From sequence record MN850614.1: a DNA stretch of 64,000 nt, one strand, 5' to 3'. Below are positions 7,238 through 31,995 of this stretch, one piece after another (the first letter of the stretch is position 1; every line of letters begins with the position of its first letter). The notes beneath the pieces were generated by a model, which was given only the letters and a program-made list of their open reading frames with translations, searched no databases and was not told where the DNA came from. The stretch is from Escherichia phage adrianh. The position numbers and the translations under genes are program-made.

Positions 7238-7242
7238 TCAAA

Positions 7243-7767
7243 TTACCTTAGCATGTGTGATTTTACTGGAATAAAGATACCAAATTGTGAGACTGCTAAA
7301 CCAGATAGTGACATACACTGTTCAGGTAAGTACACAAAAGCCCCTGTGTAGAAGTCTATAAAAGAACCATCATCTTGTTTGCAGGCTAGTTTTCCATAAC
7401 CATAGTTGTACAACTTTAATGAACCATCCTCATACTTTGAGTAGTTCTTGAACTGAACATTAAAAGCATATTCAGAGAACCTTGTGTACAGGTCATAAAG
7501 CAATCCAATACTGTCGTCGACTATTGCTACACCAAACTTTTTACAAATATCCACATAGTTTTTGTATAATTTATTATGATTTTCAGGTGTTGCAAAGTTT
7601 GTATACCAATGTTCTAAGATAGATAACTTAATTGGCTGATTTTTAGAATATTCTAATACCTTCATGTCATACCAAGATTTCCTAAGTCTGACATCATCTA
7701 GCCTTAAATTTTGAGACACTTCGCGGAAGTTTTTGATGATTATATTTCTGCGCCTGTTGTCAATCAT
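7243..7767 (-). CDS. Hypothetical protein
   Basis: Start moved to the internal ATG (MIDNRRRN) because it has RBS AGAGGA upstream and removes the overlap with the gene at 7770-7961. Confidence 0.45.
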   Translation of the reverse strand: MIDNRRRNIIIKNFREVSQNLRLDDVRLRKSWYDMKVLEYSKNQPIKLSILEHWYTNFATPENHNKLYKNYVDICKKFGVAIVDDSIGLLYDLYTRFSEYAFNVQFKNYSKYEDGSLKLYNYGYGKLACKQDDGSFIDFYTGAFVYLPEQCMSLSGLAVSQFGIFIPVKSHMLR

Positions 7768-7769
7768 AA

Positions 7770-7961
7770 TCAATCCTCTGAGTGATACCAAGTGTTGCAA
7801 GCATTACATGCGTAAAGCTCTAAGTCATTTTTATCTGGTTTATGAAAACAGTTCGCTCCGCAGTGGCAACGAAATGGCTTTCCACCAACTGTCAGGACGA
7901 AGGACTGAATCTTTCCATCAGGAGTTCGTACAGCATTTTTATGCTTATCTTCTTTGTTCAT
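7770..7961 (-). CDS. Small zinc-finger protein
   Basis: 63 aa with CHC ... CNAC cysteine/histidine pattern. Confidence 0.45.
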   Translation of the reverse strand: MNKEDKHKNAVRTPDGKIQSFVLTVGGKPFRCHCGANCFHKPDKNDLELYACNACNTWYHSED

Positions 7962-9040: not shown

Positions 9041-9592
9041 TCAAGATAGTTTTGCAAACTCTCCGTGGAGTTTAATAGCAGCTTCACAGTAAGCTTTATG
9101 GGCTTCTTCTGGTGTGTCAAACATACCAAGATGATAGTTTTTACCTTGTAAACGTATCATTGCTCGAAACCTTTTACTTATCTTCTGTACACCTTTTGGC
9201 AACCCAGATGGGGACTCTCTTGACCGATTGCAAGAGTTTTGTGAAGCTGTACAAACCCTTAAATTCAAGTACCTATTGTCCCAACCGTCCCCATTCTTAT
9301 GGTCAACCTGTAAGGTTTTATCAGGTAGATATCCATCCATATACAAGATAACTAAACGATTTGCTTGGTAACCCCTTCCATCAATCAGCAACTGAACTGA
9401 CTTGTGTCCATCAGTATTTGTTCTGTAGTTTCCAGCCCTCTTACCTCCAAATCTAGAGTTAAAGTTTGCATTACCTTCTCTAAACTTCCAAGTAAAGACC
9501 CCTGTTTCGGGGTCGTAGTCCAATAGCCCCTTAAGACGAATTTCTGTAATCATTTCAACACCATCAATGCACTTCCAACCAGCTCTTACCAA
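9041..9592 (-). mobile_element. HNH homing endonuclease gene (183 aa)
   Basis: HNH-type motif (QVDHKNGDGWDNRYLNLRVCTASQN); N-terminal segment YDPETGVFTWK shared with the second HNH ORF at 19132; sits immediately downstream of the polymerase gene. Confidence 0.7.
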
Positions 9593-12293
9593 CCTTACCT
9601 GTGCCAGTTACAAGCGTCTCACTCTTCAAACCTAAATTCTTAGATGCCTGACCATACATCCAGTCAGTTATGGCTTTAACTTCTTGAGTCATACTTTCTG
9701 GGCACTCCCAACTGTTTTCATCGTGGTATGCCAGCAAAAGCCTAGCACCAATTGCTGGTTTTCGTCCATTTAATTTTGTCAACCCTTCTTCACATGCTCT
9801 TCTACAAGCAAGGTTAATTGCCTCGTTCTGAATCTGACTTTCCGAACCCATGAGCAAATAATTCAATAACTTATGTGGAGATTTACACCACAACCAAGCT
9901 CCAGCAACCTTTACAAAACCCCCTTTAGAGATTGCAGCAGTCTTACCAAACACCTCTTCAAGTGCCTTTTTAGTTGCTTTGTAGTCAGCTTCCAAGTCAT
10001 CTAACAGCTTCTTAATTTTAGGCAAACGAATAAAGTAGGTCTGTTTAGTCAGTGCACCTTCCTGAGTAGTTGCAGCTTTAATTGTCTTAGCAAACTTCTC
10101 ATCACCTGCACCGAACAGCAGTGCATAGATACCATTCTTAGCTTTCTTACGACCCTTGCTAATCTCATGGAGAAGGTTCTCATCCTGAGTAGCTCGACAA
10201 GTCAAGATATCCTGCTCATCATTCAAGCTAAAGTAAATACTGTTCAGTGTGTGTGCATCAGTCCCTGAATAGACAACGTAAAGGTCGTTCTCAGAGTCAT
10301 AGCGAAGGTACTTATCAATCTCTGGGTTGAGGTACTCATCAAAGTGTTTGCAGTAATAGCGTCCATCTTCTTGACGAATAAACTCAATCTCTTCTTTACC
10401 TTGCGTTACCGCTTTGGTGAAGTCTTTGTCACCCATAAAGTTACAAAGAAGAACTAGCTGGGCTGAGTTCATGTCTACAGAGACAACGTTAGTACCTTCT
10501 TCACAAATCCACACTGCCCTCATTGGTTCCCCATAGACAGCAGCACCAGACGGTACGTTTACAATACCATACTGTGTCATACGTCCAGTTGAAGTACCAA
10601 ATACCATTGCACCAGCACTAAGGCGACCATCAGGACGAATCTGGTTCAACCAACCTTTTTCATCATCCTTTGAGTTCTCAATAGTTCTGCGTCGGTGCAT
10701 CAAAGTATAGTACTTAGCAATCTTCTGTCCAAGTTCACCTTCAATCGTATCATAAGATGACTCAGTAAGCTTTGGTGAAGTACGGATTAAGCAAGGTTCA
10801 AGCAAATCTGTGTATTTCTTCACAGACCAATTATGCTCAATGTACTGTACACCTTCGTGCTCAACATAGCTCAAACCACACCGCTCAACCATTTCCTGCC
10901 ACTTAGGATGTTTTGTAATCATCTTTTTATTGTCTTTGAAACGACAAACTTTGACAGGGCGACCGTCTGAGTCTTTCTTGTAGTTCCAGTCATCTGGAAT
11001 CCAACCAACTGATTTCAAGTAGTCTTTAACAACTGCTACCTGAGTCATACGAGAAACTTCAAACTCAATTGGTGTATATGGTGCATCAATCAAACCTGTG
11101 TAGCGACTTGACTCAAGTTCAAAGTGGTTAACAACGTGGCTGTTATAGTACTTCACAGTTTTGACTGTTTTTACTGGCTTCCAGTCTTTGCATTTCTTAC
11201 CAATCTTTGCATTCAACTCATTGCAAATTGCACGAGCATCCTTCATTGCTACAAAACCTTCCTTGTACTCTTCACCAGTTACAGAGTTGGTTGGTGTATA
11301 GCAATTCCTTTTTTCAATGTTAAAAATCTTTGTAGTTGGCTTACCAAATGGTTTGATTTCATAAGTCTGCATCTCACCATTACGTACCTGCTGACGGTAC
11401 TTTGTCTTAGGGTACTTGGTAATTCTCTTCAGTCCATCTGCATGACCAAATGTTTCAACATACTCATTCCAAGCCCTTGCAAACTCTTCTCCAGTGACTT
11501 TACCTTTGGTCTTAATAGTTGGAGGAAGATGTGGTTCAACCTCTGAAGCAAGCTCATTAGTCAACTTGTCAAGTTCCTTTACATGGAACTCCATAAGCTC
11601 TTTATCAGCTTTCCAACCATTGATAGCTTGCTGGCTCATCCAGAAAGATGTCTCTTTAGCTCGCATGTAAGTCTCATAAGTGTCTATACCACACTTCTTA
11701 AGCTTGAGATACTCGTTATCAAGTGCCCGTTTAGTTTTGGCATTAATACGGATATCTTCTACAACACGAGTGAAGATTTCTGCATTCCACACACCCCAAT
11801 GTTCAATCTCTGGTTTACGGACACCAACACGAGCACCCCATGCAGCCAAACCATGAGCACCTTTATAACCCTTTGGGGTTGGCCTATCCATCCACTGAAC
11901 ACGAGACTGGATAAGAGAGTCCTGAAAGAAATTACTCCACGGTTTACACTTTGGATTATCAAAGTTCCATAAATCAGGTGCAATGTGATTGAAAACCCAC
12001 CAGTCATAACCGAGACCATTATGGATGCAAAGACGTTTTGCCTTTAACGCAAATTCAACACCTTCACGTAAACCACCTTTGATGTACTTAGTGTACTTGT
12101 GACCGAGGATAGGCTCATCTGTAAAGACCCATACAGGTGGCTCTTCATCGTCAGATTTATAGTCTGCAAAGGCCATTACGTGAACTTTAGTGAACTCAAG
12201 GAGTAAACCATCAGTTTCTGTATCACCAACCAAATGTAAGTTTTTAAAATCTACGTTTTCCATTTTTACTCCCTCTAAAATCATTAACCTCAT
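9564..12293 (-). CDS. DNA polymerase, family A, with 3'-5' exonuclease domain
   Basis: 909 aa; exo motif VGDTETDG; motif A-like SVDMNSAQLVLL; motif B RKKAKNGIYALLFGAG; motif C YHDE; uninterrupted. Confidence 0.85.
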   Translation of the reverse strand: MRLMILEGVKMENVDFKNLHLVGDTETDGLLLEFTKVHVMAFADYKSDDEEPPVWVFTDEPILGHKYTKYIKGGLREGVEFALKAKRLCIHNGLGYDWWVFNHIAPDLWNFDNPKCKPWSNFFQDSLIQSRVQWMDRPTPKGYKGAHGLAAWGARVGVRKPEIEHWGVWNAEIFTRVVEDIRINAKTKRALDNEYLKLKKCGIDTYETYMRAKETSFWMSQQAINGWKADKELMEFHVKELDKLTNELASEVEPHLPPTIKTKGKVTGEEFARAWNEYVETFGHADGLKRITKYPKTKYRQQVRNGEMQTYEIKPFGKPTTKIFNIEKRNCYTPTNSVTGEEYKEGFVAMKDARAICNELNAKIGKKCKDWKPVKTVKTVKYYNSHVVNHFELESSRYTGLIDAPYTPIEFEVSRMTQVAVVKDYLKSVGWIPDDWNYKKDSDGRPVKVCRFKDNKKMITKHPKWQEMVERCGLSYVEHEGVQYIEHNWSVKKYTDLLEPCLIRTSPKLTESSYDTIEGELGQKIAKYYTLMHRRRTIENSKDDEKGWLNQIRPDGRLSAGAMVFGTSTGRMTQYGIVNVPSGAAVYGEPMRAVWICEEGTNVVSVDMNSAQLVLLCNFMGDKDFTKAVTQGKEEIEFIRQEDGRYYCKHFDEYLNPEIDKYLRYDSENDLYVVYSGTDAHTLNSIYFSLNDEQDILTCRATQDENLLHEISKGRKKAKNGIYALLFGAGDEKFAKTIKAATTQEGALTKQTYFIRLPKIKKLLDDLEADYKATKKALEEVFGKTAAISKGGFVKVAGAWLWCKSPHKLLNYLLMGSESQIQNEAINLACRRACEEGLTKLNGRKPAIGARLLLAYHDENSWECPESMTQEVKAITDWMYGQASKNLGLKSETLVTGTGKVGKSWLEVH

Positions 12294-12323
12294 ACATTAC
12301 TGCAAAAAATTATAAAAAGCAAG

Positions 12324-12352
12324 TTGACAATGTACTTGACAAGGTGTTAATC
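12324..12352 (+). promoter_or_regulatory. Sigma70-like promoter in divergent intergenic region
   Basis: TTGACA, 17-nt spacer, TTAATC; contains the ACTTGACAAGGTG motif also present near 28085 and 58190. Confidence 0.45.
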
Positions 12353-12520
12353 TTTGCGAAGTGGGTTTTTACTTAAAAGGTTACTTAACAGTTTAACTAT
12401 ACAGATACTTTAAAACTCTTAAAAGATTATTTAATAGCTTTTAAAAAGCTTTAAAGTATAACGTATAGAATACGTTAAGATAAAAGATTAAAACTTAATA
12501 GTTACTTAAAAGAGGCTTAC

Positions 12521-12943
12521 ATGCAGAAAATGTTTGTTCACCCAGACATAGCTGACTTTGTTAGAGCTTTGCAGAAGTTGGAAGAACTTGACATTGCTGC
12601 TCAACGGGAATATGCTCACCATCACAGGAGAATGGTTGATATACAACATGAAATAGAGTTATCTGAAAACTATGAAGATGACTTAAAATGCTCTGTGTTT
12701 GAGCATATGAAAGATGTTGCTACAGCGAGACGTAAAGCTAAAGACACAGTTGCTTTACTAGATTCTCTTAAAAAGAGGTTGCAAAGTGGTACAGACCTGT
12801 GTAATCTAGCGTCACTGATTAACGATGTTGAAACTTCTTGGGATAGGCACTATTATCCACGTTCTGAAAAGACACTTGACTTTTCTTCATCCGAAAACTT
12901 AAAATGTTCTAGAAAGAAACTTAACCAACTGAGAGAGAAATAA
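12521..12943 (+). CDS. Hypothetical protein
   Basis: 140 aa ORF, first gene of the plus-strand block. Confidence 0.5.
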   Translation: MQKMFVHPDIADFVRALQKLEELDIAAQREYAHHHRRMVDIQHEIELSENYEDDLKCSVFEHMKDVATARRKAKDTVALLDSLKKRLQSGTDLCNLASLINDVETSWDRHYYPRSEKTLDFSSSENLKCSRKKLNQLREK

Positions 12944-12944
12944 T

Positions 12945-13745
12945 ATGAATACCGATGTAGAAAAGATGCTTGAAGAAAAAGGTATTGACGAAGCATTTTT
13001 AATCAATGCCGTAGAAAGCATGGCTATGATTCTTCGTGGTAATAACTACACAGAACAGTTTATGCCTGCAAGCTATAACTTGCCTAAAGACAAGTCTGAT
13101 AACGGTGCTTTTGCAGAACAGGTTAATATGATGTTGACAGACACTACACTTGCTCTGGCATCTATTGCGGTTGGTGTTGATGCACTTGCTGAGTTCATTT
13201 TTTATGAAATGCAAAAGAATGACTATATCAGAATGTCAGATGAAGATAAGGAGTTGTTGCTGACTAAGGACACTGATTTCATTATTGATATGCTTATCTC
13301 ATCAACGAGTGCTGTTATGGCTGTTCTTGAGAAGCGCATGGAAGAGAAACTTTCACGATATGAAAAACTTGATTGGGGCGTAGAAGAATTAAACCCACGA
13401 ATCAAAGAGATTATCCAGCAAACTAAAGAGTCTTTGGAAGAAGCTGTTGAGAATGACTCTGTAGCTGACATCGAACCACTTCAGGTGAAAGTTGCACTGA
13501 TGATTCCAGCTATCTCTACGATGATGAATATCGTTGCACTAATCCAACTTTCACAGATGATGGGTATGAGTATTGAGTTCATTGAGGAGATGACTGGTGG
13601 TGTCAGTCTGCAAGCAATCAATGATGTTTTGGTGAACATTGGTGCTTCAATCATTGAAGAGAAACTACGCATTAACTTTGGTGATGATTTTGTGAAGCAA
13701 ATCTCAGCTATGGCTGAAAAAGAGTCTGCTGAGCAACTGCACTAA
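12945..13745 (+). CDS. Hypothetical protein
   Basis: 266 aa ORF. Confidence 0.55.
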   Translation: MNTDVEKMLEEKGIDEAFLINAVESMAMILRGNNYTEQFMPASYNLPKDKSDNGAFAEQVNMMLTDTTLALASIAVGVDALAEFIFYEMQKNDYIRMSDEDKELLLTKDTDFIIDMLISSTSAVMAVLEKRMEEKLSRYEKLDWGVEELNPRIKEIIQQTKESLEEAVENDSVADIEPLQVKVALMIPAISTMMNIVALIQLSQMMGMSIEFIEEMTGGVSLQAINDVLVNIGASIIEEKLRINFGDDFVKQISAMAEKESAEQLH

Positions 13746-13763
13746 ATCTTTATAAATCTTAAA

Positions 13764-13788
13764 AGCCTCCTTAGTTGGGGGCTTTTTA
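13764..13788 (+). terminator. Rho-independent terminator
   Basis: AGCCTCC / GGGGGCT hairpin followed by TTTTT. Confidence 0.6.
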
Positions 13789-13806
13789 GTAATTAAGGGA
13801 GATAAA

Positions 13807-14550
13807 ATGAGTAATATTATCGCATTTACTGGAAAGGCACGTTCTGGAAAAGACACCTCATGTTCTATTGTGAAGAACATCTTAGAGGATGAGTACGGCT
13901 ACAATGTTGCTGTAATGGCCTTTGCAGACAACCTTAAACTGTCTGCATCAAAGATATTTGACCTGACTTGGAATGACCTGTATGGTGAAACTAAAGAGAC
14001 TCCACAGGTATTTGACTTATCATATCCTGAACTGATGTTTAAAGTTACGGAAGCTATGGAGTTCACCTTCAGAGATGAACGTTACCATATGGACTTCAAG
14101 CTTATGTCAGAGTTAACCGGACGATTAATCATGGAGCTTAAGAAGGTTGCTAAACCGACTCTATTGACACGTCTGGGGTTTAGCAAAAAGTATAAATTCT
14201 CATCAAGACAAATTCAACAGGTTTGGGGCACTGAAGTTGTCCGTAAAGTAATGGGCGACAAGTTCTGGTCTAAAGACCTTGAAAAAAGAATGGTTAGATT
14301 CCATGAAATGTGCTCACTTAGAAATCAATATGGTTTTGTATTAATCAGTGATTTAAGATTTGACTCTGAAGCTGAATGGCTGAGTAGATTTGCACACCAA
14401 ACTATTGAAGTAAAAAGAGACAATGTGGACAAAGTTTCATCACATGTTTCAGAAAATGGGATTTCTACAAAATATGAGCGTGACATTATTCATAATAATG
14501 GTACTCTTGCAGACCTTGAGAACAAGCTAAGAGCCATCATTAAAGTTTAA
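13807..14550 (+). CDS. Deoxynucleoside monophosphate kinase
   Basis: 247 aa; N-terminal P-loop IIAFTGKARSGKDT resembling phage dNMP kinases. Confidence 0.6.
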   Translation: MSNIIAFTGKARSGKDTSCSIVKNILEDEYGYNVAVMAFADNLKLSASKIFDLTWNDLYGETKETPQVFDLSYPELMFKVTEAMEFTFRDERYHMDFKLMSELTGRLIMELKKVAKPTLLTRLGFSKKYKFSSRQIQQVWGTEVVRKVMGDKFWSKDLEKRMVRFHEMCSLRNQYGFVLISDLRFDSEAEWLSRFAHQTIEVKRDNVDKVSSHVSENGISTKYERDIIHNNGTLADLENKLRAIIKV

Positions 14551-14558
14551 AAGAGAGA

Positions 14559-14759
14559 ATGAAGATGAGAGTAAAAGACAATTTTAAAGTTATTGACCAC
14601 CGTTTAGTGGAACTCTCATCTCTTTCCAATGAGGTAATGATTGAACGTCTTAAGAGAGTTGAATCACGAAGGAAAGAGATTGCAGATGAAATTCATGAAC
14701 TGGACAAGATTGAAAATGGATTGAAGGCAGAACTACAACGAAGAGGTGCTAATGTCTAA
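14559..14759 (+). CDS. Hypothetical small protein
   Basis: 66 aa ORF. Confidence 0.4.
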   Translation: MKMRVKDNFKVIDHRLVELSSLSNEVMIERLKRVESRRKEIADEIHELDKIENGLKAELQRRGANV

Positions 14760-16737
14760 AGGTCGTAAATTGAAAGAGGCTGGTCAGTTTGTTGGTCATT
14801 GTGCATGTCCACGTTGTGGTTCATCAGATGCTGGTTCAATCTATCATCATGACGATGATTCTTATTCGATGACTTGCTTTAGTTGTAAGAAAGGTTTCCC
14901 AGAGTGGGATTTTGATAAAGGACAAATCGTGAGCACTTATTCTACTGGTTCAGACAATAAAAACCGTACTTTCCGTGGAATGGATTTAGACGATGTAAAA
15001 GAAAACCTAGAAGCAATGGACTTGAAAGACAGGAAGATTCCTGCAAAAGTTCTTGAGCGTTTGGGTATTAAGGTTGACATTGACAGTGATGGTGAAATTG
15101 ACGCACATTTCTACCCAACTTACAAACGTAATGAAGATGGTAAGCTAGAACATGTTGGCTACCGTGTTCGTCACCGTTACCCAGAAGACCATCCAAAAGA
15201 GCACCTACGTGGTAAGCTAAAAGACTTTTCTGGTGGTGTTGGAGACATTAAAGGTGAACTGGCAATGTTTGGTTCATGGATTGCTCCAGAAGGTGGTAAC
15301 CGTCTATTCATCTGGGAAGGTGAGATGGAATGTGCGACAGCAATCTACATGACCTCTTTGGCGATTAAAGATAAGTCTCGTCGTAAGAATTACTGTCACG
15401 TATCTGTCCCATCAGGTGCAAACATTAAGTCTATCAAAGACAACTATCAGTACATCACATCATTTGATGAGATTTACTTGTGCTTTGATAACGATGAAGC
15501 AGGTGCTAAAGCTACCAAAGAGGCTGCTGGCATTCTCCCTATCGAGAAGGTTCGTTTATTCCAGTATCCAGAAGGTGTAAAAGACCTTAACGAATGGTGG
15601 ACAAAGTTCTATAAAGAGAAAGATACAGTTCTGGAAGGATTTAAGCAGCGTATCTACAATGCACCTCGTTACTGTCCTGCTGGTATCAAGAACTTCGCAG
15701 ATGGTTTTGAGGCAATGAAGAATCGTGGTCAGATTCCATTGATTCCTTTCCCAGAATCATTCGGAGATTTGAACAGACTGACTTATGGTGGTTATGGACT
15801 AGGTGAGATTACAACTCTGGCAGCACCATCTTCAGTGGGTAAATCAGCATACACTCGTGAAATGATTTACACAGCTTGGAAAGAAACCGATTACAATATT
15901 GGTGTAATTCCTGTAGAAGATACCTATGAAGAGTTGATGGAGATGCTCTGTGCAATCCACCTGAGCAAGCAGATTTCTGAGATTCCTTATGACGAACGTG
16001 ATTGGGATGAATTGAAGGGAGCGCACGCAGAACTATCTAAAGGTCGTCGTATCCACATCGTAGACCATCAAGGGGCAATTGACCAAGATAACTTACTGGA
16101 GTTTGTTGACTATCTTGTTAATAGCTTAGACTGTAAGATTATTATTCTTGACCCTATTACGTTGGCTCTGTCACGTTCAGATACGGATGAAGAGGAAGTT
16201 TTGTCTGAGCTATTGCGTCGTTGCAAACGCTACCAGTATGCACAATTGAACGTCTGTCACGTTCGTAAGAGTGCAGGTGGTCAGAAGGCTAACTCTGAAG
16301 GTGGGGATATCTCTGAAGAGGATATTAAAGGCTCTGGTGCGTATTTCCAGATTTCTATGAACAACATTCTGTTAATGCGTAACAAGGTTGACCCAGACCC
16401 TGTTAAGAAAAACTTGACAAAAATCAAGCTAACTAAATGTCGTCGTCACGGTAAGTCAACGGGTATTGCTGGTCATACTTGGTACAATCCAGATACAGGA
16501 CGCCTCATCAAAGCATCTGGTTGCGGAGTTGACATTGATGGTGCAGCAGAAAATATTCGCCAACAGTTTGGTATTGGTGAAGCTGAAGACCATTACGATG
16601 ACTCTTTGCCACATTATGAGGATGAAGTGTTTGACCGTGAGACTGGTGAAGTCTATACTGAAGAGCAGCGCCAAAGCTCAACGATTCCACCTGTATTAAG
16701 TGAGGATGCAGATGACTGCCCATTCGAAACTGAGTGA
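14746..16737 (+). CDS. Primase-helicase (zinc finger, TOPRIM, DnaB-like helicase)
   Basis: 663 aa; N-terminal zinc ribbon CPRCGSSDAG ... CFSCKKGF; Walker A GKS in the C-terminal half. Confidence 0.8.
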   Translation: MLMSKGRKLKEAGQFVGHCACPRCGSSDAGSIYHHDDDSYSMTCFSCKKGFPEWDFDKGQIVSTYSTGSDNKNRTFRGMDLDDVKENLEAMDLKDRKIPAKVLERLGIKVDIDSDGEIDAHFYPTYKRNEDGKLEHVGYRVRHRYPEDHPKEHLRGKLKDFSGGVGDIKGELAMFGSWIAPEGGNRLFIWEGEMECATAIYMTSLAIKDKSRRKNYCHVSVPSGANIKSIKDNYQYITSFDEIYLCFDNDEAGAKATKEAAGILPIEKVRLFQYPEGVKDLNEWWTKFYKEKDTVLEGFKQRIYNAPRYCPAGIKNFADGFEAMKNRGQIPLIPFPESFGDLNRLTYGGYGLGEITTLAAPSSVGKSAYTREMIYTAWKETDYNIGVIPVEDTYEELMEMLCAIHLSKQISEIPYDERDWDELKGAHAELSKGRRIHIVDHQGAIDQDNLLEFVDYLVNSLDCKIIILDPITLALSRSDTDEEEVLSELLRRCKRYQYAQLNVCHVRKSAGGQKANSEGGDISEEDIKGSGAYFQISMNNILLMRNKVDPDPVKKNLTKIKLTKCRRHGKSTGIAGHTWYNPDTGRLIKASGCGVDIDGAAENIRQQFGIGEAEDHYDDSLPHYEDEVFDRETGEVYTEEQRQSSTIPPVLSEDADDCPFETE

Positions 16738-16993
16738 TAGTTATAAAAGAGAGGGGTTCACACCCTTCTTTGAAGAAAAAAGTTTAAATAAATTTCAGGA
16801 AGAGTGTTTGACAAAGATTGATAGATTCTATAGAATGCTCCTCATGAAATGCGATGGAGAGGTTGAGATAAAAGAAGATTTTCACCAGAGCATGATTACA
16901 GTCATCATTGCGCTGCCTCAGCATAATATTAGTTGGCTGTTTATAATTAAAGAAAATGTGTTTGAATATCAAGTATATCGGAGAATATCATGA
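16712..16993 (+). CDS. Hypothetical protein
   Basis: ORF overlapping the helicase 3' end; ATG at 16712 has GAGGA upstream; weak. Confidence 0.3.
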   Translation: MTAHSKLSDSYKREGFTPFFEEKSLNKFQEECLTKIDRFYRMLLMKCDGEVEIKEDFHQSMITVIIALPQHNISWLFIIKENVFEYQVYRRIS

Positions 16994-17139
16994 AACACTC
17001 TAAAGCATTTGAAAAAGTTTTTGGGGATTCCTTAAAAGCCACTGCTGGAAAACCAGCAAAATACTATGAAGAAAAACGTGTAAGAACTGGAAAAACTGCA
17101 CGTAAAGCAGCTTCTAAAGATAAGCACAACTTCCAGTAA
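16990..17139 (+). CDS. Small basic protein (49 aa), not in the ORF track
   Basis: ATG at 16990 with GGAG upstream; 49 Lys-rich codons; below the 60-aa cutoff. Confidence 0.3.
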   Translation: MKHSKAFEKVFGDSLKATAGKPAKYYEEKRVRTGKTARKAASKDKHNFQ

Positions 17140-17211
17140 TTAGTATTTGACAATAGAGTATCAACAAATTAGAATTGGTACTCTTCATAAATTGAGATAG
17201 AGGTCTAAATA

Positions 17212-18069
17212 ATGTCTAAAGTTGTTAAAATGAAAGCTCCGGTAGAGAAGTACAACGGTACTGAACGTCAAACTCTGCGTTACCTGCTGAAAGATGTCTG
17301 GTTTTATTACCTGAACACTTCACCACGTCCGGGAAAAGGTAAGTCTATTGATAAAAAATTCCCAGGAAAAGATTGTAACTACAGCGTATCAATTCTGGCA
17401 GAAGACGGTAACAAGCTCTTTAAAGAGTTTACTAAGTCTAAGAAAAATCCAGAAGGCTGGGATAAAGTTACTACTGAAGCAGTTGACGCAGATGACTTTG
17501 AAGAGAAGTTTGGTTGTAAGCCACCTTTTGAAGCAGACACTTACTACATCTTGAAAGTAAGTCGTGCAGCAGCTTATAAAGATGGTGCTGTATGGACAGC
17601 TAAACAGTCATTCCCTGTAATGCTGATTGAAGAAGTAAATGGTAAGCGTGTAGCTGTTAAGCAGCCGATGAAGAAAATCAAAGCTCAAGCATCTGATAAA
17701 CATGAAGATGACAAGAACTATGATGTAATTCATCCAGATATCGCAGTTGGTAATGGTTCTTTTGGTAGTGTGATTCTTTCTACTCACTTCTACACTTTTG
17801 AGAACAATGTTCTGACAAAACCTATTCAGGAACAGTTTATCATTGATACTCTTGTACCTTACACTGGTGGTAACGGTGCTAATGGTGAACCTGAACTTGA
17901 TGAAGATGAACTGGCTATGCTTGGTCTTGATGGTGTTGAAGATAACGGTGAAATCACTGAAGAAGACGCAACAGACCATAAACCTTCGAATGCTTCTGAT
18001 GATGGTGATGATGAAGATTTGCCAGACCCAGATGACGAAGAAGATGAAGACTTCGATACAGAAGATTAA
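17212..18069 (+). CDS. Putative ssDNA-binding protein with acidic C-terminal tail
   Basis: 285 aa; C-terminus is a long Asp/Glu run ending DEDFDTED, as in phage SSBs; position between helicase and nuclease. Confidence 0.4.
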   Translation: MSKVVKMKAPVEKYNGTERQTLRYLLKDVWFYYLNTSPRPGKGKSIDKKFPGKDCNYSVSILAEDGNKLFKEFTKSKKNPEGWDKVTTEAVDADDFEEKFGCKPPFEADTYYILKVSRAAAYKDGAVWTAKQSFPVMLIEEVNGKRVAVKQPMKKIKAQASDKHEDDKNYDVIHPDIAVGNGSFGSVILSTHFYTFENNVLTKPIQEQFIIDTLVPYTGGNGANGEPELDEDELAMLGLDGVEDNGEITEEDATDHKPSNASDDGDDEDLPDPDDEEDEDFDTED

Positions 18070-18087
18070 TCTCTAAAAGTTACTTTA

Positions 18088-18116
18088 AAGCCCTGTACTC
18101 AGTATGGGGCTTTTTC
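18088..18116 (+). terminator. Rho-independent terminator
   Basis: GCCC ... GGGGC hairpin followed by TTTTT. Confidence 0.55.
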
Positions 18117-18131
18117 ATATGGAGAGCCATA

Positions 18132-19178
18132 ATGGAGAAGTACACATTAACAAAACTTCCCGATTCAGTTACACATGTCTTTATTGACTCTGACAGTATT
18201 GCCTATAAAGGTGCTTGTGTAGTTGAGAAAGCAAAGTATAAATATGTCAATAAACTCACAGCAGAAGAGTCTGAGCCATTTGATAATGCGAAAGATGCCG
18301 CAAGATGGTTAGCAGACCAGAGAATCTTTGTGGAAGAGCTTGGTCTGACATTTGATGAAGATGAATGGGAAAGACAGACTTGGAAAGAAGCTAAGAGTGA
18401 AAAAGAAGCTATCATGGCTACTCAACAGGTTCTTCAGGAATGGCTTAAGGTTGTTGGTAAAGATAGAACTTGGGTGGGTTATTTAACAGAGAAAGGTGTG
18501 CATAAACATAAAGACATTAAAGGTCTTGAGCACCAATATCAAGGCAACCGTAAAGATGCTGTCACACCAACACACTTAGTTGCTTGTCGCGAGTATCTTC
18601 TGTCAAGGCCAGAGTTCAAGCTAATTCTTGATGGATTCGAAGCTGACTCTATCGTTATTGCTAAAGCTGAAAAGATGGGTAAAAAGGCTGCCTTGATGAG
18701 TATTGATAAAGACCTTCGCCAAGCTGAAGGGACTTACTGCATTGATATGACCTATGAAAAGTCACCTTTGATTTTCATTGCTGATAACAACGTTGGTGAA
18801 ATTTGGGATTGCCCAATAAAATCGACACCCAAAGCTAAGAAGACAGTTGGGGTAGGTTTTAAATTTCTTTGCTATCAAGCCGTGGCTGGTGATAATGCGG
18901 ATAATTATTTCGGTTTAAAGGGTGTTGGTAAGGTTACTATAATGAAAGCCCTTGAAGGTAAAACCACTTACAAAGAGTGTCTTGATGCAATTTATGAGCT
19001 TTATGCTAAGAAAGAGTCATACACTTATGTCTCGTGGGATGGTCAAACAATTACCAGAACACCTTTAGAGTTAATGCAGCAACACTTTTTCTTAGCTTAT
19101 CAGGAAAGAAATAAGAAAGACGATTTCACTTTTGATAAGTATGGATGGACACCAAATGTTAACCCAACAAACTCTTAA
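18132..19178 (+). CDS. 5'-3' exonuclease / flap endonuclease
   Basis: 348 aa; helix-hairpin-helix segment AGDNADNYFGLKGVGKVT typical of FEN/RNase H family. Confidence 0.6.
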   Translation: MEKYTLTKLPDSVTHVFIDSDSIAYKGACVVEKAKYKYVNKLTAEESEPFDNAKDAARWLADQRIFVEELGLTFDEDEWERQTWKEAKSEKEAIMATQQVLQEWLKVVGKDRTWVGYLTEKGVHKHKDIKGLEHQYQGNRKDAVTPTHLVACREYLLSRPEFKLILDGFEADSIVIAKAEKMGKKAALMSIDKDLRQAEGTYCIDMTYEKSPLIFIADNNVGEIWDCPIKSTPKAKKTVGVGFKFLCYQAVAGDNADNYFGLKGVGKVTIMKALEGKTTYKECLDAIYELYAKKESYTYVSWDGQTITRTPLELMQQHFFLAYQERNKKDDFTFDKYGWTPNVNPTNS

Positions 19179-19656
19179 AGAATACCTGCACTATGACCCC
19201 GAAACAGGGGTCTTTACTTGGTTAGTTAATAGAAAAGGTAAGGCCAAAGCTGGCTCAGTAGCGGGTCTTAAACATCATAGTGGTTATATCTACATAAAAC
19301 TCTTCGGGAAAAGATATGCAGCACACAGACTGGCATTCTTGTATATGAAAGGATACCTACCAAAATTTGTTGACCATAAGAATGGTATCAGGCACGACAA
19401 CTGGTTCGACAATTTGAGAGAGTGTAGCAGGTCAGATAATAACTGTAATGCAGCCAAAAGAAGAGATAATAAATCTGGTGTGAAGGGTGTATATTACCAT
19501 AAGCAAAGAGGTAGATGGGCTGCACAAGTCAAGCATAATAAAGTTTGCTATCATCTAGGTTTATTTGACTCTATCGCTGAGGCTGAATTAGTTGTCAAAA
19601 AGAAAAGAGAAGAACTCCATAAAGAGTTTACAAATCACGGAGAAGCTTATGAATGA
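19132..19656 (+). mobile_element. HNH homing endonuclease gene (174 aa)
   Basis: N-terminal YDPETGVFTWL segment shared with the ORF at 9041; HNH-like FVDHKNGIRHDNWFDNLRECSRSDNNCN. Confidence 0.65.
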
Positions 19657-20153
19657 GAAAAATAAAAGGTTTTGGCAATTGTCCTGAATATGGACATTGG
19701 GTTTCACTATGTGGTGAAGTTGACCCAGCAAAGCACTTTGGTTTTGTCTACCTAGTGTACTGCAAAAAGACTGGACAGTACTATTTGGGTAAGAAGCAGC
19801 TTAACAGTGTGACCAAAAGAAAAGTTGCTGGGAAGACTCGGAAGAAGGTAGTCACTAAGGAGAGTGATTGGATGACTTACGAGACTTCTTCTGAGTATAT
19901 TAAAAAAGATATTGATAGCTTTGGAAAAGAATTTTTTGACTTTTACATTATTCAAACCTACTACACAAAAGGTGGCCTAGTCTATGGTGAAGCAAACCTT
20001 CAACATAAATTCGATGTAATGACAAAAAGGATTGACTCGAAGCTCAGACTCTTCTACAATGCCAATATTGCAGCAATTAAGTTTATTACTAAAGAAACTT
20101 ATGAAGATGCTGAAAAAAGAATCCATAAGGTAATGAAAGCAAATTGTGCTTGA
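19653..20153 (+). mobile_element. GIY-YIG-like endonuclease gene (166 aa)
   Basis: FVYLVYCKKTGQYYLGKK matches the GIY...YIG spacing. Confidence 0.4.
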
Positions 20154-25692: not shown

Positions 25693-25891
25693 ACGCCTTT
25701 GGGAAGGTTTGGTTGTTGATGCACCAGCTATTGTGATTGGTATGCTTATTGTTAACCTATTTACTGACTTTGAACAAGGTTCATTGTTTGGAGCCATGTT
25801 ACTATGGGTTATCTTTGAAATATTAGAGATACAGTTAGGTATCACTGAAAAACTAAGAGAACTCTTTGCGAAGTTTTCTAAAAAGATTTAA
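25685..25891 (+). CDS. Small membrane protein
   Basis: 68 aa, hydrophobic; RBS GAGGTG. Confidence 0.45.
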   Translation: MLKRLWEGLVVDAPAIVIGMLIVNLFTDFEQGSLFGAMLLWVIFEILEIQLGITEKLRELFAKFSKKI

Positions 25892-28084: not shown

Positions 28085-28093
28085 AACTTGACA

Positions 28094-28135
28094 AGGTGAT
28101 GTGGGTCTTGATAGGCTTACATCACCTTTTTTATT
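28094..28135 (+). terminator. Rho-independent terminator after nrdD
   Basis: 9-bp stem AGGTGATGT / ACATCACCT followed by TTTTTT. Confidence 0.6.
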
Positions 28136-28238
28136 GGATGTCAGACATGGCAGAGAGTATTATCGGTTTGTTCATAGGTTCTGTCTTACTAGGATTCTTT
28201 TTAGGACTTTCTTATTGTGAATTGAGAGATAAGTTAAA

Positions 28239-28439
28239 ATGTTTAAAATATCAAAAACGTTGATATACATACTCCACATTCTAATCTTCTTCTTTGGGGT
28301 TAGTGTTATGGTATGGGGTTTTTCAGACCCACAATGGAGTTTATCATATCACGGACAAATGGATTTATGGTCATGCTTCAAACCATTTTTAGGGTTAGCT
28401 ATAGCATTCAGTGCATTACCAACTAGGGTGAAATTATGA
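28239..28439 (+). CDS. Small membrane protein
   Basis: 66 aa, hydrophobic. Confidence 0.35.
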   Translation: MFKISKTLIYILHILIFFFGVSVMVWGFSDPQWSLSYHGQMDLWSCFKPFLGLAIAFSALPTRVKL

Positions 28440-28831
28440 TTAAGTTGAACCAAAAACAGTTAGAGTGGGTTAAAGACTACGCCTCAGAGTGTGGCTCTTG
28501 CGAAAAGAATCACGTAAAATACTCAACATTCCATACAGTCTTCACATTGTACATCAGCGACAATGTTCTAAGCGACTCCGTAGAAGACGGTGTAGCGTTG
28601 CCTAATGAGTTACTTGATAAATTAGCTGTAGTCACTGGAACTTGGTCTGAAGAAGATGGTCATGAATTATCTGATGATGTTGTCTTCTACACCCTTGAAA
28701 ACATCATGAATCCAGAGTACATTATGCTAATGACTTGCGCGCAAGACTGTGTTCCATTACAAGACTTTATTAAAGAACACTGTGAAGAGTTTATTACTAA
28801 ACAGGTTCCTTGTGAGGTGGTGTTTGAATGA
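28436..28831 (+). CDS. Hypothetical protein
   Basis: 131 aa. Confidence 0.45.
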   Translation: MIKLNQKQLEWVKDYASECGSCEKNHVKYSTFHTVFTLYISDNVLSDSVEDGVALPNELLDKLAVVTGTWSEEDGHELSDDVVFYTLENIMNPEYIMLMTCAQDCVPLQDFIKEHCEEFITKQVPCEVVFE

Positions 28832-28890
28832 GTAAAACAATTCGAAGAAAAGGTTTAAAGAACATTTATATTTATTGGTGAGGTAAATAG

Positions 28891-30270: not shown

Positions 30271-30786
30271 ATGTATCTGTCAAACCTAAAACGTTCTGCT
30301 GCAATGTCAGTGTTAAGACTTAGCTTTGAGGAACGTCAAGAGTTCATTGACTCCCACCAATACGACCCCTCAAACTCCAATCACATGATTCTCTGGAATC
30401 GTGAAAGTACTCGTGAAAGAGTACTATTCCGTTATTACCCACACTACACTATAGATAACCTGTATGAATGTTTTGTTGTGAAGAACACCATTGCAGTGCT
30501 CAATAAGCTTTGTAGATACACAGGTAGTCAATCCTTCACATTAGGCCACCACAAACCTGTTACAAAGGGTGGTGAGCATCACTGTGCAAACTGGTTTATC
30601 CAAACTAAATCTGATAATCAGAAGCAAGGAGATAGCCTTCTAAACATCCCTAAGATGACCTATGAAGAGCAAGAGAAATATATCAAAAATAATATGCCAG
30701 ATGTGCTTGACAACAACTATACAGATTTGGCAATATCTCTCCTGTTAAAGTTTGAGACAGTTTATAGGGCAACTTACAATGGCTAA
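30271..30786 (+). CDS. HNH-like nuclease (His-Me finger)
   Basis: 171 aa; GHHKPVTKGGEHHCANW resembles an HNH core. Confidence 0.4.
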   Translation: MYLSNLKRSAAMSVLRLSFEERQEFIDSHQYDPSNSNHMILWNRESTRERVLFRYYPHYTIDNLYECFVVKNTIAVLNKLCRYTGSQSFTLGHHKPVTKGGEHHCANWFIQTKSDNQKQGDSLLNIPKMTYEEQEKYIKNNMPDVLDNNYTDLAISLLLKFETVYRATYNG

Positions 30787-31949: not shown

Positions 31950-31957
31950 AACTTTAT

Positions 31958-31981
31958 AGGGGGCTTTCAAGCCCCATTTTG
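31958..31981 (+). terminator. Terminator-like hairpin
   Basis: GGGGC-TTTCAA-GCCCC hairpin followed by ATTTT. Confidence 0.45.
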
Positions 31982-31995
31982 AGAGAGATTAAAAG

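What the first reader, a model, noticed from the sequence alone, without database searches (positions are those of the whole stretch)
9041..20153. Several endonuclease genes of the homing type within the replication module
Two HNH ORFs (9041-9592 and 19132-19656) share an N-terminal YDPETGVFTW segment and HNH core, and a GIY-YIG-like ORF (19653-20153) follows. One abuts the 3' end of the DNA polymerase gene, the others follow the flap endonuclease. A further HNH-like ORF lies at 30271-30786. Free-standing homing endonucleases mark sites of marker exclusion and mosaicism in phages.
Basis: partly seen in the sequence, partly recalled or inferred. Interest (0 to 1): 0.4.

Follow-up and report, generated by a model that had tools for sequence, protein, structure and literature searches.

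The report
Homing endonuclease genes in FelixO1-like phage
This stretch of a Felix O1-like phage genome carries two selfish "homing" nuclease genes, next to the DNA polymerase and exonuclease genes, that come and go between related phages, while the two other nuclease-like genes flagged are fixed family genes; all of this is ordinary and already described for this phage group.

Summary
The window is a Felixounavirus (Felix O1-like myovirus). All four ORFs exist. Profile searches confirm HNH_3 plus AP2 in ORFs 9041-9592(-) and 19132-19656(+), and a SegE-type GIY-YIG domain in 19653-20153(+).

The two HNH-AP2 genes behave as free-standing homing endonuclease genes. The window-type alleles occur in only about 25 and 34 of roughly 300 relatives. 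Other relatives carry a different allele or nothing at the same junction. The insertions have precise boundaries (9045-9567 and 19143-19647). Identity to endonuclease-free relatives falls from 97-100% to 69-77% in the adjoining ends of the polymerase and exonuclease genes.

The GIY-YIG gene is not sporadic. It is single-copy and syntenic in essentially all Ounavirinae, including Erwinia phages. It is under purifying selection (dN/dS 0.05-0.2) and has no DNA-binding extension.

ORF 30271-30786 is also conserved and single-copy. It has a conserved H..N..N motif in a predicted beta-beta-alpha unit, but no significant profile or fold match.

Homing endonucleases in Felix O1 have been reported since 2010, so novelty is low.

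Side result: about 97 relatives carry a group I intron in polymerase motif B. The window has the empty site.

The parts
9041..9553 (-). HNH1: free-standing HNH_3 (+AP2-like) homing endonuclease gene just downstream of the DNA polymerase gene. Probable ATG start is 9553 (170 aa); the maximal ORF runs to the TTG at 9592.
   Evidence: Pfam HNH_3 E 6e-12, AP2 26.6 bits below cut-off. phrog_99 E 4e-60. Start context read. Window-type allele at >=90% aa identity in only 25 phage records, all others <60%. Absent in wV8, KhF2 and AYO145A; a different allele in FelixO1 and GEC_vB_B1.
9045..9567 (.). Extent of the HNH1 insertion relative to the endonuclease-free phage wV8, which has 10 nt in its place.
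   Evidence: blastn breakpoints.
9564..12293 (-). Family A DNA polymerase gene, uninterrupted (909 aa).
   Evidence: PF00476 E 6e-15. Annotated DNA polymerase in relatives.
9601..10500 (.). Mosaic 3' part of the polymerase gene that travels with the downstream HNH allele.
   Evidence: Per 100 nt: 69-82% identity to wV8 over 9601-9900 against 95-100% further upstream. 53-82% identity to FelixO1 over 9601-10500 against 94-100% further upstream. 96-100% identity to Mushroom, which has the same HNH allele, over 9601-10000.
10117..10123 (-). Empty insertion site of a group I intron present in relatives. It lies in polymerase motif B (codons for GIYALLFGAG).
   Evidence: Mushroom has 316 nt and GEC_vB_B1 has 810 nt inserted here. 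Rfam Intron_gpI 62.3 bits in Mushroom. No intron anywhere in the window. Junction read.
18132..19178 (+). 5'-3' exonuclease / exodeoxyribonuclease gene, the upstream neighbour of HNH2.
   Evidence: Annotation in relatives. Weak 5_3_exonuc hit. Weak match to Taq DNA polymerase, chain residues 180-214.
18532..19131 (.). Tract of the exonuclease gene where identity to the endonuclease-free allele declines towards the HNH2 insertion.
   Evidence: Window vs Alf5 per 100 nt: 94-100% before 18532, then 84, 87, 83, 77, 76, 74%.
19156..19656 (+). HNH2: free-standing HNH_3 + AP2 homing endonuclease gene. Probable ATG start is 19156 (166 aa), inside the last 23 nt of the exonuclease gene. Its TGA stop overlaps the ATG of the next gene.
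   Evidence: Pfam HNH_3 E 1e-12, AP2 33.8 bits. phrog_99 E 3e-76. 100% identical protein in phage fjerdesal. >=90% identity in 34 records, rest <60%. dN/dS 0.12 vs FelixO1 ORF106. Junctions.
19143..19647 (.). Extent of the HNH2 insertion relative to the endonuclease-free phage Alf5, which has 14 nt in its place.
   Evidence: blastn breakpoints, alignment. Most relatives span 1728 nt instead of 2222 nt here.
19653..20153 (+). GIY-YIG (SegE-type) nuclease-domain gene. It has the catalytic domain only and is conserved and syntenic across Ounavirinae. It does not behave as a mobile element.
   Evidence: PF19835 E 1e-26, residues 22-139 of 166. >=60% aa identity in about 296 records, one copy each. 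Same exonuclease-GIY-MazG order in Erwinia phage Prophecy. dN/dS 0.05-0.21; 60% aa identity to Prophecy against 55% for the exonuclease and 39% for MazG.
30271..30786 (+). Conserved 171-aa gene (phrog_3500) with an HNH-like H..N..N motif. It lies among nucleotide-metabolism genes and is not sporadic.
   Evidence: phrog_3500 E 2e-91, phrog_2214 HNH E 8e-5, no Pfam nuclease hit. 225/259 relatives cover >=80% of the site. Single copy also in Erwinia phages and 146-150 kb myoviruses. Invariant H93, G100, G101, N107. Model pLDDT 91.8 with strands 89-93 and 108-112 and helix 113-119. Fold searches not significant.

Best explanation
The window comes from a Felix O1-like phage (Felixounavirus).

Two of the flagged genes, 9041-9553(-) and 19156-19656(+), are free-standing homing endonuclease genes of the HNH_3 + AP2 type. 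Each sits in the short junction after an essential replication gene: the DNA polymerase gene and the 5'-3' exonuclease gene. Each is probably translated by coupling to that upstream gene.

Inferred mechanism. In a mixed infection with a relative that lacks the gene, or carries another allele, the enzyme nicks or cuts the relative's DNA near the junction, most likely in the 3' part of the polymerase or exonuclease gene. Recombinational repair then uses the endonuclease-carrying genome as template and copies the endonuclease gene together with some hundreds of bases of flank. That leaves the observed local mosaics. The carrier's own diverged flank protects it from being cut.

The GIY-YIG gene (19653-20153) and ORF 30271-30786 have nuclease-type motifs but are fixed, single-copy, vertically inherited genes of the subfamily. 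They are best read as resident nucleases of unknown role, possibly domesticated, and not as mobile elements.

What is shown: domains, distribution, insertion boundaries, flank mosaicism and purifying selection. What is inferred: cleavage, target position, translational coupling, and any role of the two fixed genes.
For: Identity of the window: 275 phage records match, nearly all Felixounavirus, best 96.9%.

Domains. The two HNH proteins are paralogous (41% identity).

Sporadic distribution:
- Site survey with 600-nt flanks. HNH1 site: 302 records match, only 32 cover >=80%. HNH2 site: 301 match, 91 cover >=80%, and most span 1728 nt instead of 2222 nt.
- tblastn. The window-type HNH1 is >=90% identical in 25 records and HNH2 in 34. 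Almost everything else is <60%, with many phages carrying several copies (2406 places in 1590 records; 4559 places in 2818 records).

Precise boundaries against Alf5 and wV8.

Identity gradients toward both insertion sites.

Intact catalytic D-H...N...N motifs in both HNH ORFs (translations). HNH2 dN/dS 0.12.

GIY-YIG gene: present in about 296 records, one copy each. Synteny kept in an Erwinia phage. dN/dS 0.05-0.21, and it diverges no faster than its neighbours. The domain fills residues 22-139 of 166, whereas a 270-aa homologue carries a long C-terminal extension.

ORF 30271-30786.

Literature:
- Six HNH homing endonuclease copies reported in Felix O1 (PMC3185647).
- Variable endonuclease content among Felixounaviruses (PMC4837284, PMC9951933).
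- HNH+AP2 homing endonucleases commonly lie next to polymerase genes (PMC10448857).
- Free-standing endonuclease homing with co-conversion of flanks in T4 (PMC2988022).
Against: No cleavage, nicking or inheritance data exist for these proteins. The target sites are inferred only from where identity drops.

HNH1's AP2 match is below the Pfam cut-off. Its dN/dS against Mushroom is 0.6, based on few changes, so it could be under relaxed constraint.

Local identity troughs can also arise from ordinary recombination with divergent relatives without endonuclease action.

The presence counts include duplicate and near-identical records, so they are not independent events.

For the GIY-YIG gene, fixation does not prove loss of homing activity. 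The structural model was of moderate quality and fold search was not significant.
Confidence: 0.8

Rival explanations
1. All four ORFs, including the GIY-YIG gene and ORF 30271-30786, are mobile homing endonuclease genes. The two conserved ones would simply have swept to fixation.
For: The GIY-YIG domain belongs to the SegE family. Distant homologues with C-terminal extensions exist (P0010). Some relatives annotate both genes as homing endonucleases. ORF 30271-30786 is replaced by methylase genes in GEP101 and SP4 SHa-2019 and deleted in BPS17L1, so its site is not entirely static.
Against: Both genes are single-copy, at one position, in nearly all relatives across genera. The GIY-YIG gene shows strong purifying selection and divergence that tracks its neighbours. 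It has no DNA-binding extension. Neither gene shows the bimodal identity distribution seen for the two HNH genes (against 60, 61).
Confidence: 0.08
2. The two HNH-AP2 proteins are kept mainly because they help the phage, and their mobility is incidental. Possible roles are excluding co-infecting relatives, nicking DNA for replication or recombination, or regulating neighbouring genes.
For: HNH2 is under purifying selection (dN/dS 0.12). Both sit in operons of replication genes with overlapping start and stop codons. A recent report describes a phage homing endonuclease that helps immune evasion (PMC13096335, abstract seen).
Against: Most close relatives do without either gene or use very different alleles. 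That argues against a needed function. The distribution and flank mosaics are what selfish homing predicts.
Confidence: 0.1
3. The HNH ORFs are inactive remnants. The presence/absence pattern and mosaics reflect ordinary illegitimate and homologous recombination at gene junctions, not endonuclease activity.
For: HNH1 against Mushroom has dN/dS 0.6. HNH1's AP2 match is sub-threshold. No biochemical data exist.
Against: Both ORFs are full length with intact HNH motifs. HNH2 is 100% identical in another isolate and has dN/dS 0.12. Identity falls progressively toward exactly the two insertion sites.
Confidence: 0.07

Closest known systems
Felix O1 ORF95, ORF106 and ORF107 (NC_005282; Whichard et al. 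2010, PMC3185647)
   Same: Same three positions: after the polymerase, after the exonuclease, and then the GIY-YIG gene. ORF106 is 94% identical to HNH2 and ORF107 is 94% identical to the GIY-YIG ORF. Felix O1 was reported to carry six HNH homing endonuclease copies.
   Different: ORF95 is a different allele at the polymerase site. It is 47% identical to HNH1 and shares only the C-terminal ~26 residues (TPEEAHKAYCEAAIKLHGEFAKLS) and the 3' DNA. RefSeq labels ORF107 'NAD synthetase', which the Pfam hit does not support.
Free-standing Seg (GIY-YIG) and Mob (HNH) homing endonucleases of phage T4 (Edgell, Gibb and Belfort 2010, PMC2988022)
   Same: Endonuclease genes lie between conserved genes. 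They are sporadic among relatives. Flanking markers are co-converted, giving marker exclusion.
   Different: The HNH genes here have the HNH_3 + AP2 architecture. PMC10448857 states that T4 lacks its ICP1-like, AP2-associated 'IPA-HNH' class; whether the present ORFs belong to that class was not tested. No cleavage data exist for them. The SegE-like gene here is fixed and lacks a DNA-binding part, unlike T4 Seg proteins (the latter from general knowledge of that family).
HNH + AP2 homing endonucleases of phages, cyanobacteria and protists (reviewed in Barth et al. 2023, PMC10448857)
   Same: N-terminal HNH nuclease with a C-terminal AP2 DNA-binding domain. Frequently located next to DNA polymerase genes (29% of neighbourhoods in that survey). 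Domain shuffling between alleles.
   Different: That paper's ICP1-type 'IPA-HNH' domains are too divergent for the Pfam HNH_3 profile. The ORFs here match HNH_3 directly.
T4 mobE / I-TevIII trans-homing (PMC2790892)
   Same: In relatives, a free-standing HNH gene lies about 550 nt from a group I intron site in the same essential gene, and many of those introns have no endonuclease ORF.
   Different: The window has no intron. Among 27 records with the window-type HNH1, 11 have the intron and 16 do not, against about 97 of about 300 overall. No strong association supports cooperative mobility.

Membership tests
HNH_3 + AP2 free-standing homing endonucleases | HNH_3 (beta-beta-alpha-metal) nuclease domain with catalytic His/Asn residues | tested here: met
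   PF13392 E 6e-12 (HNH1) and 1e-12 (HNH2), both well above the 24.8-bit cut-off. The motifs VDHKNG..DN..NLR are visible.
HNH_3 + AP2 free-standing homing endonucleases | C-terminal AP2-type DNA-binding domain | tested here: inconclusive
   HNH2 scores 33.8 bits against a cut-off of 33.3, so it is met. HNH1 scores 26.6 bits, below the cut-off, though it aligns with HNH2 across this region.
HNH_3 + AP2 free-standing homing endonucleases | Sporadic presence at a fixed junction among close relatives, with clean empty sites | tested here: met
HNH_3 + AP2 free-standing homing endonucleases | Flanking sequence mosaicism consistent with co-conversion | tested here: met
   Identity gradients toward both sites. 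This is consistent with homing but not proof of it.
HNH_3 + AP2 free-standing homing endonucleases | Site-specific nicking or cleavage of the endonuclease-free allele and biased inheritance in crosses | not testable with these tools
   Needs enzyme assays and phage crosses.
Seg-type GIY-YIG homing endonucleases | GIY-YIG catalytic domain | tested here: met
   PF19835 E 1e-26. Invariant G30, F31, Y33, Y44, G46, E113, N115 and N136 among homologues. The structure-based check was not significant.
Seg-type GIY-YIG homing endonucleases | Separate DNA-binding region that gives site specificity | tested here: not met
   The protein is 166 aa and the domain covers residues 22-139. No other Pfam hit at E<1. 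A 270-aa homologue, P0010, has a long C-terminal extension that the Ounavirinae proteins lack.
Seg-type GIY-YIG homing endonucleases | Sporadic distribution among close relatives | tested here: not met
   One copy at the same place in about 296 records, including Erwinia phages. dN/dS 0.05-0.21.
HNH nucleases (ORF 30271-30786) | Significant profile match to an HNH family | tested here: inconclusive
   No Pfam hit. phrog_2214 'HNH endonuclease' E 8e-5 over residues 59-124. A profile of the family against PDB gives the Gme HNH nuclease 4h9d only at E 1.2.
HNH nucleases (ORF 30271-30786) | Conserved His...Asn...Asn/His on a beta-beta-alpha unit | tested here: inconclusive
HNH nucleases (ORF 30271-30786) | Sporadic distribution, needed for the label 'homing' | tested here: not met
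   225 of 259 relatives cover >=80% of the site. One copy per genome in several myovirus groups.
Group I intron in the DNA polymerase gene | Intron RNA present in the window | tested here: not met
   The Rfam scan of the whole window finds only 17 tRNA genes. The polymerase ORF is continuous. Relatives carry the intron.

The most novel reading that the evidence does not exclude
This reading has two parts.

First, the two junctions act as docking sites where successive HNH-AP2 alleles replace one another by recombination inside the endonuclease gene. Alleles at one site keep the same site-specific 5' and 3' ends, and a shared ~75-nt block around YDPETGVFTW, but have unrelated middles. Under this reading, specificity modules are swapped in place.

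Second, the adjacent SegE-like GIY-YIG gene is a domesticated nuclease without a DNA-binding domain. It is fixed in all Ounavirinae and has relatives in T4-like cyanophages, and it would have a resident function that is still unknown.
Probability: 0.35. Interest if true: 0.35.

Novelty: already known. Interest (0 to 1): 0.15.

Why it matters
It matters little beyond annotation.

It confirms that the polymerase and exonuclease junctions of Felix O1-like phages are hot spots of endonuclease-driven mosaicism. That is useful when choosing marker genes for phylogeny or when engineering these therapy and diagnostic phages.

It separates truly mobile endonuclease genes from two fixed nuclease-like genes that are often mislabelled 'NAD synthetase', 'homing endonuclease' or 'hypothetical'.

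It shows that the split polymerase genes of many relatives are explained by a group I intron in motif B.

Tried and rejected
1. Conserved RNA/DNA hairpin. Both HNH genes encode DPETGV with the perfect 18-nt palindrome GACCCCGAAACAGGGGTC. In 120 IMG/VR matches encoding DPETGVFTW there were 76 different codon versions. The exact palindrome occurred in only 11, all on Felixounavirus contigs. I attribute it to shared ancestry or gene conversion, not to a family-wide structure.

2. Cooperative homing of HNH1 with the polymerase intron. The intron is present in 11 of 27 genomes with the window-type HNH1, against about 97 of about 300 overall. There is no clear association.

3. Extra endonuclease remnants in the window. 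A weak tblastn hit at 25759-25887(-) lies inside a plus-strand gene of phrog_4532. The ORFs at 28096-28831, where NS7 has a homing endonuclease, are small membrane or unknown proteins. Neither is a remnant.

4. PDB sequence searches. These gave only a weak I-HmuI match for HNH2 (E 0.027) and nothing for the GIY-YIG ORF. Hits of ORF 30271-30786 to protein A repeats come from one short motif summed over repeats, and I treat them as spurious.

6. Homologue searches. The large protein searches returned few, closely related homologues, so deep profiles could not be built.

Full report
WHAT THE WINDOW IS

A 12-kb query spanning the finding matches 275 phage records at 80-97% identity. Nearly all are Felixounavirus (Felix O1-like myoviruses of Salmonella, Escherichia and Shigella). 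The best matches are Salmonella phages GEC_vB_NS7 and Mushroom at 96.5-96.9%. GC content is about 39% throughout.

Gene order matches Felix O1:
- On the minus strand: DNA ligase, small genes, an HNH gene, DNA polymerase.
- On the plus strand: dNMP kinase, primase/helicase, exonuclease, an HNH gene, a GIY-YIG gene, MazG, the ribonucleotide reductase genes, prs and NAMPT.

CHECK OF THE OBSERVATION

All four ORFs exist at the stated coordinates.

- ORF 9041-9592(-): HNH_3 at E 6e-12. The AP2 match is 26.6 bits, below the 33.3 cut-off.
- ORF 19132-19656(+): HNH_3 at E 1e-12 and AP2 at 33.8 bits.
- ORF 19653-20153(+): SegE_GIY-YIG at E 1e-26.
- PHROGs agrees: phrog_99 'HNH endonuclease' at E 4e-60 and 3e-76.

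The two HNH proteins are 41% identical over 177 residues (E 2e-34) and share YDPETGVFTW.

The polymerase ORF 9564-12293(-) is family A. The exonuclease assignment of 18132-19178 rests mainly on annotation in relatives. Here Pfam 5_3_exonuc scores 21 bits against a cut-off of 40, and Taq DNA polymerase (chain residues 180-214) matches at E 0.0017.

The mechanical TTG starts are probably too long:
- An ATG at 9553 lies 10 nt after the polymerase stop codon.
- An ATG at 19156 lies inside the last 23 nt of the exonuclease gene.
- The HNH2 stop codon overlaps the ATG of the GIY-YIG gene.

The fourth ORF, 30271-30786, has no Pfam nuclease hit. It matches phrog_3500 (unknown function) and, weakly, phrog_2214 'HNH endonuclease' (E 8e-5).

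ARE THEY SPORADIC?

I searched each gene with 600 nt of flank on either side against 50,697 phage records.

Polymerase junction (HNH1):
- 302 records match but only 32 cover at least 80% of the query.
- The rest carry a different endonuclease allele of similar length (for example Felix O1 ORF95 and GEC_vB_B1) or nothing (wV8, KhF2, AYO145A, Moogle, Mordin, Sf14, Sf15).

Exonuclease junction (HNH2):
- 301 records match and 91 cover at least 80%.
- Most span 1728 nt instead of 2222 nt, which means the HNH gene is missing while the GIY-YIG gene is present.
- Some, such as garuso, have a divergent allele.

Insertion boundaries from blastn breakpoints:
- HNH2 is window 19143-19647 relative to Alf5, which has 14 nt there.
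- HNH1 is window 9045-9567 relative to wV8, which has 10 nt there.

Protein-level distribution is bimodal:
- HNH1 is at least 90% identical in 25 records and below 60% in the other 1565.
- HNH2 is at least 90% identical in 34 records, 60-90% in 8, and below 60% in 2776.
- Many phages (T5-like, T7-like, T1-like and others) hold several copies.
- One isolate, fjerdesal, encodes a 100% identical HNH2.

The counts include duplicate records, so they describe prevalence and not independent events.

MOSAICISM AROUND THE TWO GENES

Identity was computed in 100-nt steps.

Exonuclease site, window against endonuclease-free Alf5:
- 94-100% up to 18531.
- Then 84, 87, 83, 77, 76 and 74% across the last 600 nt of the exonuclease gene.
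- After the insertion, 58% and 86% in the first 200 nt of the GIY-YIG gene.
- Then 95-100% for the next 1.3 kb.

Polymerase site:
- Against wV8 (no endonuclease): 95-100% in the polymerase gene, falling to 69-82% in its last 300 nt.
- Against Felix O1 (other allele): 94-100% upstream of 10500, falling to 53-82% over 9601-10500.
- Against Mushroom (same allele): 96-100% over 9601-10000.

The 3' part of each neighbouring essential gene therefore travels with the endonuclease allele. This is the pattern expected from co-conversion during homing, as described for T4 free-standing endonucleases (PMC2988022) and for nuclease genes at boundaries of exchange between phages (PMC10448857). It does not prove endonuclease action.

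HNH2 shows purifying selection (dN/dS 0.12 against Felix O1 ORF106). HNH1 against Mushroom gives 0.6, but on very few changes.

ALLELES ARE MODULAR

Different alleles at the polymerase site (window HNH1, Felix O1 ORF95, GEC_vB_B1) share an identical C-terminal TPEEAHKAYCEAAIKLHGEFAKLS and the matching 3' DNA. Otherwise they are only 47-48% identical.

Alleles at the exonuclease site (window HNH2 and garuso) share MLTQQxLKEYLHYDPETGVFTW and KKREELHKEFxNHGEAYE. Overall they are 56% identical.

This suggests replacement of the middle of the gene in place. It is in line with the domain shuffling described for phage endonuclease genes (PMC10448857).

THE GIY-YIG GENE IS NOT SPORADIC

- tblastn finds it at 60% identity or more in about 296 records, essentially every Ounavirinae genome (813 places in 810 records).
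- More distant homologues (27-36% identity) occur in T4-like cyanophages, usually mislabelled 'NAD synthetase'. I looked at gene context in only one of these.
- In Erwinia phage Prophecy the order primase/helicase, hypothetical gene, exonuclease, GIY-YIG, hypothetical gene, MazG is the same as in the window minus HNH2.
- Its protein is 60% identical to the Prophecy orthologue. The figures for the neighbouring genes are 55% for the exonuclease and 39% for MazG.
- dN/dS against close relatives is 0.05-0.21.
- The domain fills residues 22-139 of 166, and nothing else is detected. One 270-aa metagenomic homologue has a long C-terminal extension that the Ounavirinae proteins lack.

Its function is unknown. 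The structural model was only moderate (pLDDT 74), and Foldseek placed the I-TevI catalytic domain at E about 3.

ORF 30271-30786

- The site is covered at 80% or more in 225 of 259 relatives, including Mooglevirus-type phages at 74% DNA identity.
- The protein is single-copy in Erwinia phages (44-52% identity) and in 146-150 kb myoviruses (38-42%).
- An exhaustive HMMER search of 1.8 billion representatives found only 16.
- Their alignment shows FTLGH(H/W)xPxxKGGxHxxxNWxIQxxxxNxxxGD. H93, G100, G101 and N107 are invariant. P96, H103, W108, Q111 and N116 are nearly so. From general knowledge, this has the layout of an HNH motif.
- The AlphaFold model (pLDDT 91.8) puts it on two strands and a helix, residues 89-119.

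'HNH-like' is therefore plausible but unproven, and 'homing' is not supported. In GEP101 and SP4 SHa-2019 the gene is replaced by methylase genes.

THE POLYMERASE INTRON IN RELATIVES

Many relatives annotate two polymerase genes. In Mushroom the gap is a group I intron (Rfam 62.3 bits against a gathering score of 50). It is inserted at window 10117/10123.

From the sequence I infer a 311-nt intron:
- Exon 1 ends ...GGCATTTATGCGT.
- Exon 2 begins TATTGTTCGG.
- P1 pairs AUGCGU with GGCGCAU and ends in a U.G pair.
- The last intron base is G.
- The spliced product encodes GIYALLFGAG, identical to the window protein. From general knowledge of T7 polymerase, this lies in motif B of family A polymerases.

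The intron sequence is found in about 97 records, in three forms:
- 316 nt.
- 273 nt.
- About 806 nt, carrying an 'endonuclease VII'-type ORF.

The Mushroom genome paper noted a 383-bp gap without calling it an intron (PMC4392139). Another paper reported 'two introns' in phage SPJ41 without detail (PMC9951933).

The window has no intron anywhere. Among 27 records with the window-type HNH1, 11 have the intron and 16 do not. That gives no sign of linked mobility such as T4 mobE/I-TevIII (PMC2790892).

COMPARISON WITH WHAT IS KNOWN, AND VERDICT

- Felix O1 was reported in 2010 to carry six HNH homing endonuclease copies (PMC3185647).
- Later papers note variable endonuclease content among Felixounaviruses (PMC4837284, PMC8300805, PMC9951933).
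- The HNH+AP2 architecture and its preference for polymerase neighbourhoods are described (PMC10448857).
- The window's genes correspond to known loci: the Felix O1 ORF95 site, ORF106 and ORF107.

It is already known, and interest is low.

Noticed in passing
window 10117-10123 (empty site); L001 3119-3434; L003 3108-3917: Relatives carry a group I intron in motif B of the DNA polymerase gene. About 97 phage records have it, in three forms: 316 nt, 273 nt, and about 806 nt with an endonuclease VII-type ORF. The Mushroom paper described this only as a 383-bp gap between two polymerase genes. The inferred splice junction restores GIYALLFGAG. The window is intron-free.
   Followed up: yes
window 19195-19212 (+) and 9497-9514 (-): Both HNH genes encode DPETGV with the same perfect 18-nt palindrome, GACCCCGAAACAGGGGTC. 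It lies inside a ~75-nt block that is 81% identical between the two otherwise diverged genes. The exact palindrome was found only in Felixounavirus copies (11 of 120 metagenomic matches). It therefore looks like shared ancestry or gene conversion, not a conserved structure.
   Followed up: yes
window 9041-9146 and 19156-19224 / 19594-19656; L002, L003, L007: Different HNH alleles at one junction share the same site-specific 5' and/or 3' ends but have unrelated middles. This suggests allele replacement by recombination inside the endonuclease gene.
   Followed up: partly
window 7243-7800 (-), insertion 7239-7774: A 174-185-aa ORF beside the DNA ligase gene (adjoining its start) is absent from NS7, Mushroom and Felix O1. 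It has no Pfam or PHROG hit. It occurs in only 15 phage records, 4 of them at >=95% identity. It is a sporadic accessory gene of unknown function.
   Followed up: partly
window 27137, 28084-28870, 31949-31995; L004 6693-7433, 8389-8946, 11950-12441: The close relative GEC_vB_NS7 has three further endonuclease genes that the window lacks: one inside nrdD, one after nrdD, and one between prs and NAMPT. The window's nrdD (25940-28084) is intact, and prs and NAMPT are 46 nt apart.
   Followed up: partly
window 30271-30786; phages GEP101 (PQ036202) and SP4 SHa-2019 (MW321605): In a few relatives the conserved HNH-like ORF is replaced by DNA methylase genes. In BPS17L1 the site is shortened.
   Followed up: no
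window 30304-30381 (ORF residues 12-37): The N-terminal segment LSFEERQEFIDSHQYDPSNS resembles the repeat [20 protein letters not shown] of staphylococcal protein A. Each repeat matches only weakly on its own, and the low whole-sequence E-value comes from summing the repeats. This is probably a chance resemblance between short helical motifs.
   Followed up: no
window 19653-20153 and homologues: This GIY-YIG family (phrog_447) is widely annotated as 'NAD synthetase' in RefSeq phage records, including cyanophages. The only Pfam hit is SegE_GIY-YIG, so the label looks like a propagated misannotation.
   Followed up: partly
window 60374-63993: A cluster of 17 tRNA genes detected by Rfam on the plus strand, as expected for Felix O1-like phages.
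   Followed up: no
phage records GU169904 (Staphylococcus phage SA1), MG065668 and MG065656 (Campylobacter phages A126, C3): Records named for unrelated hosts contain sequence related to the window's genes. SA1 and A126 are 94-95% identical to Felixounavirus genes; the C3 match is only 42%. The near-identical matches in SA1 and A126 suggest mixed or mislabelled database entries.
   Followed up: no
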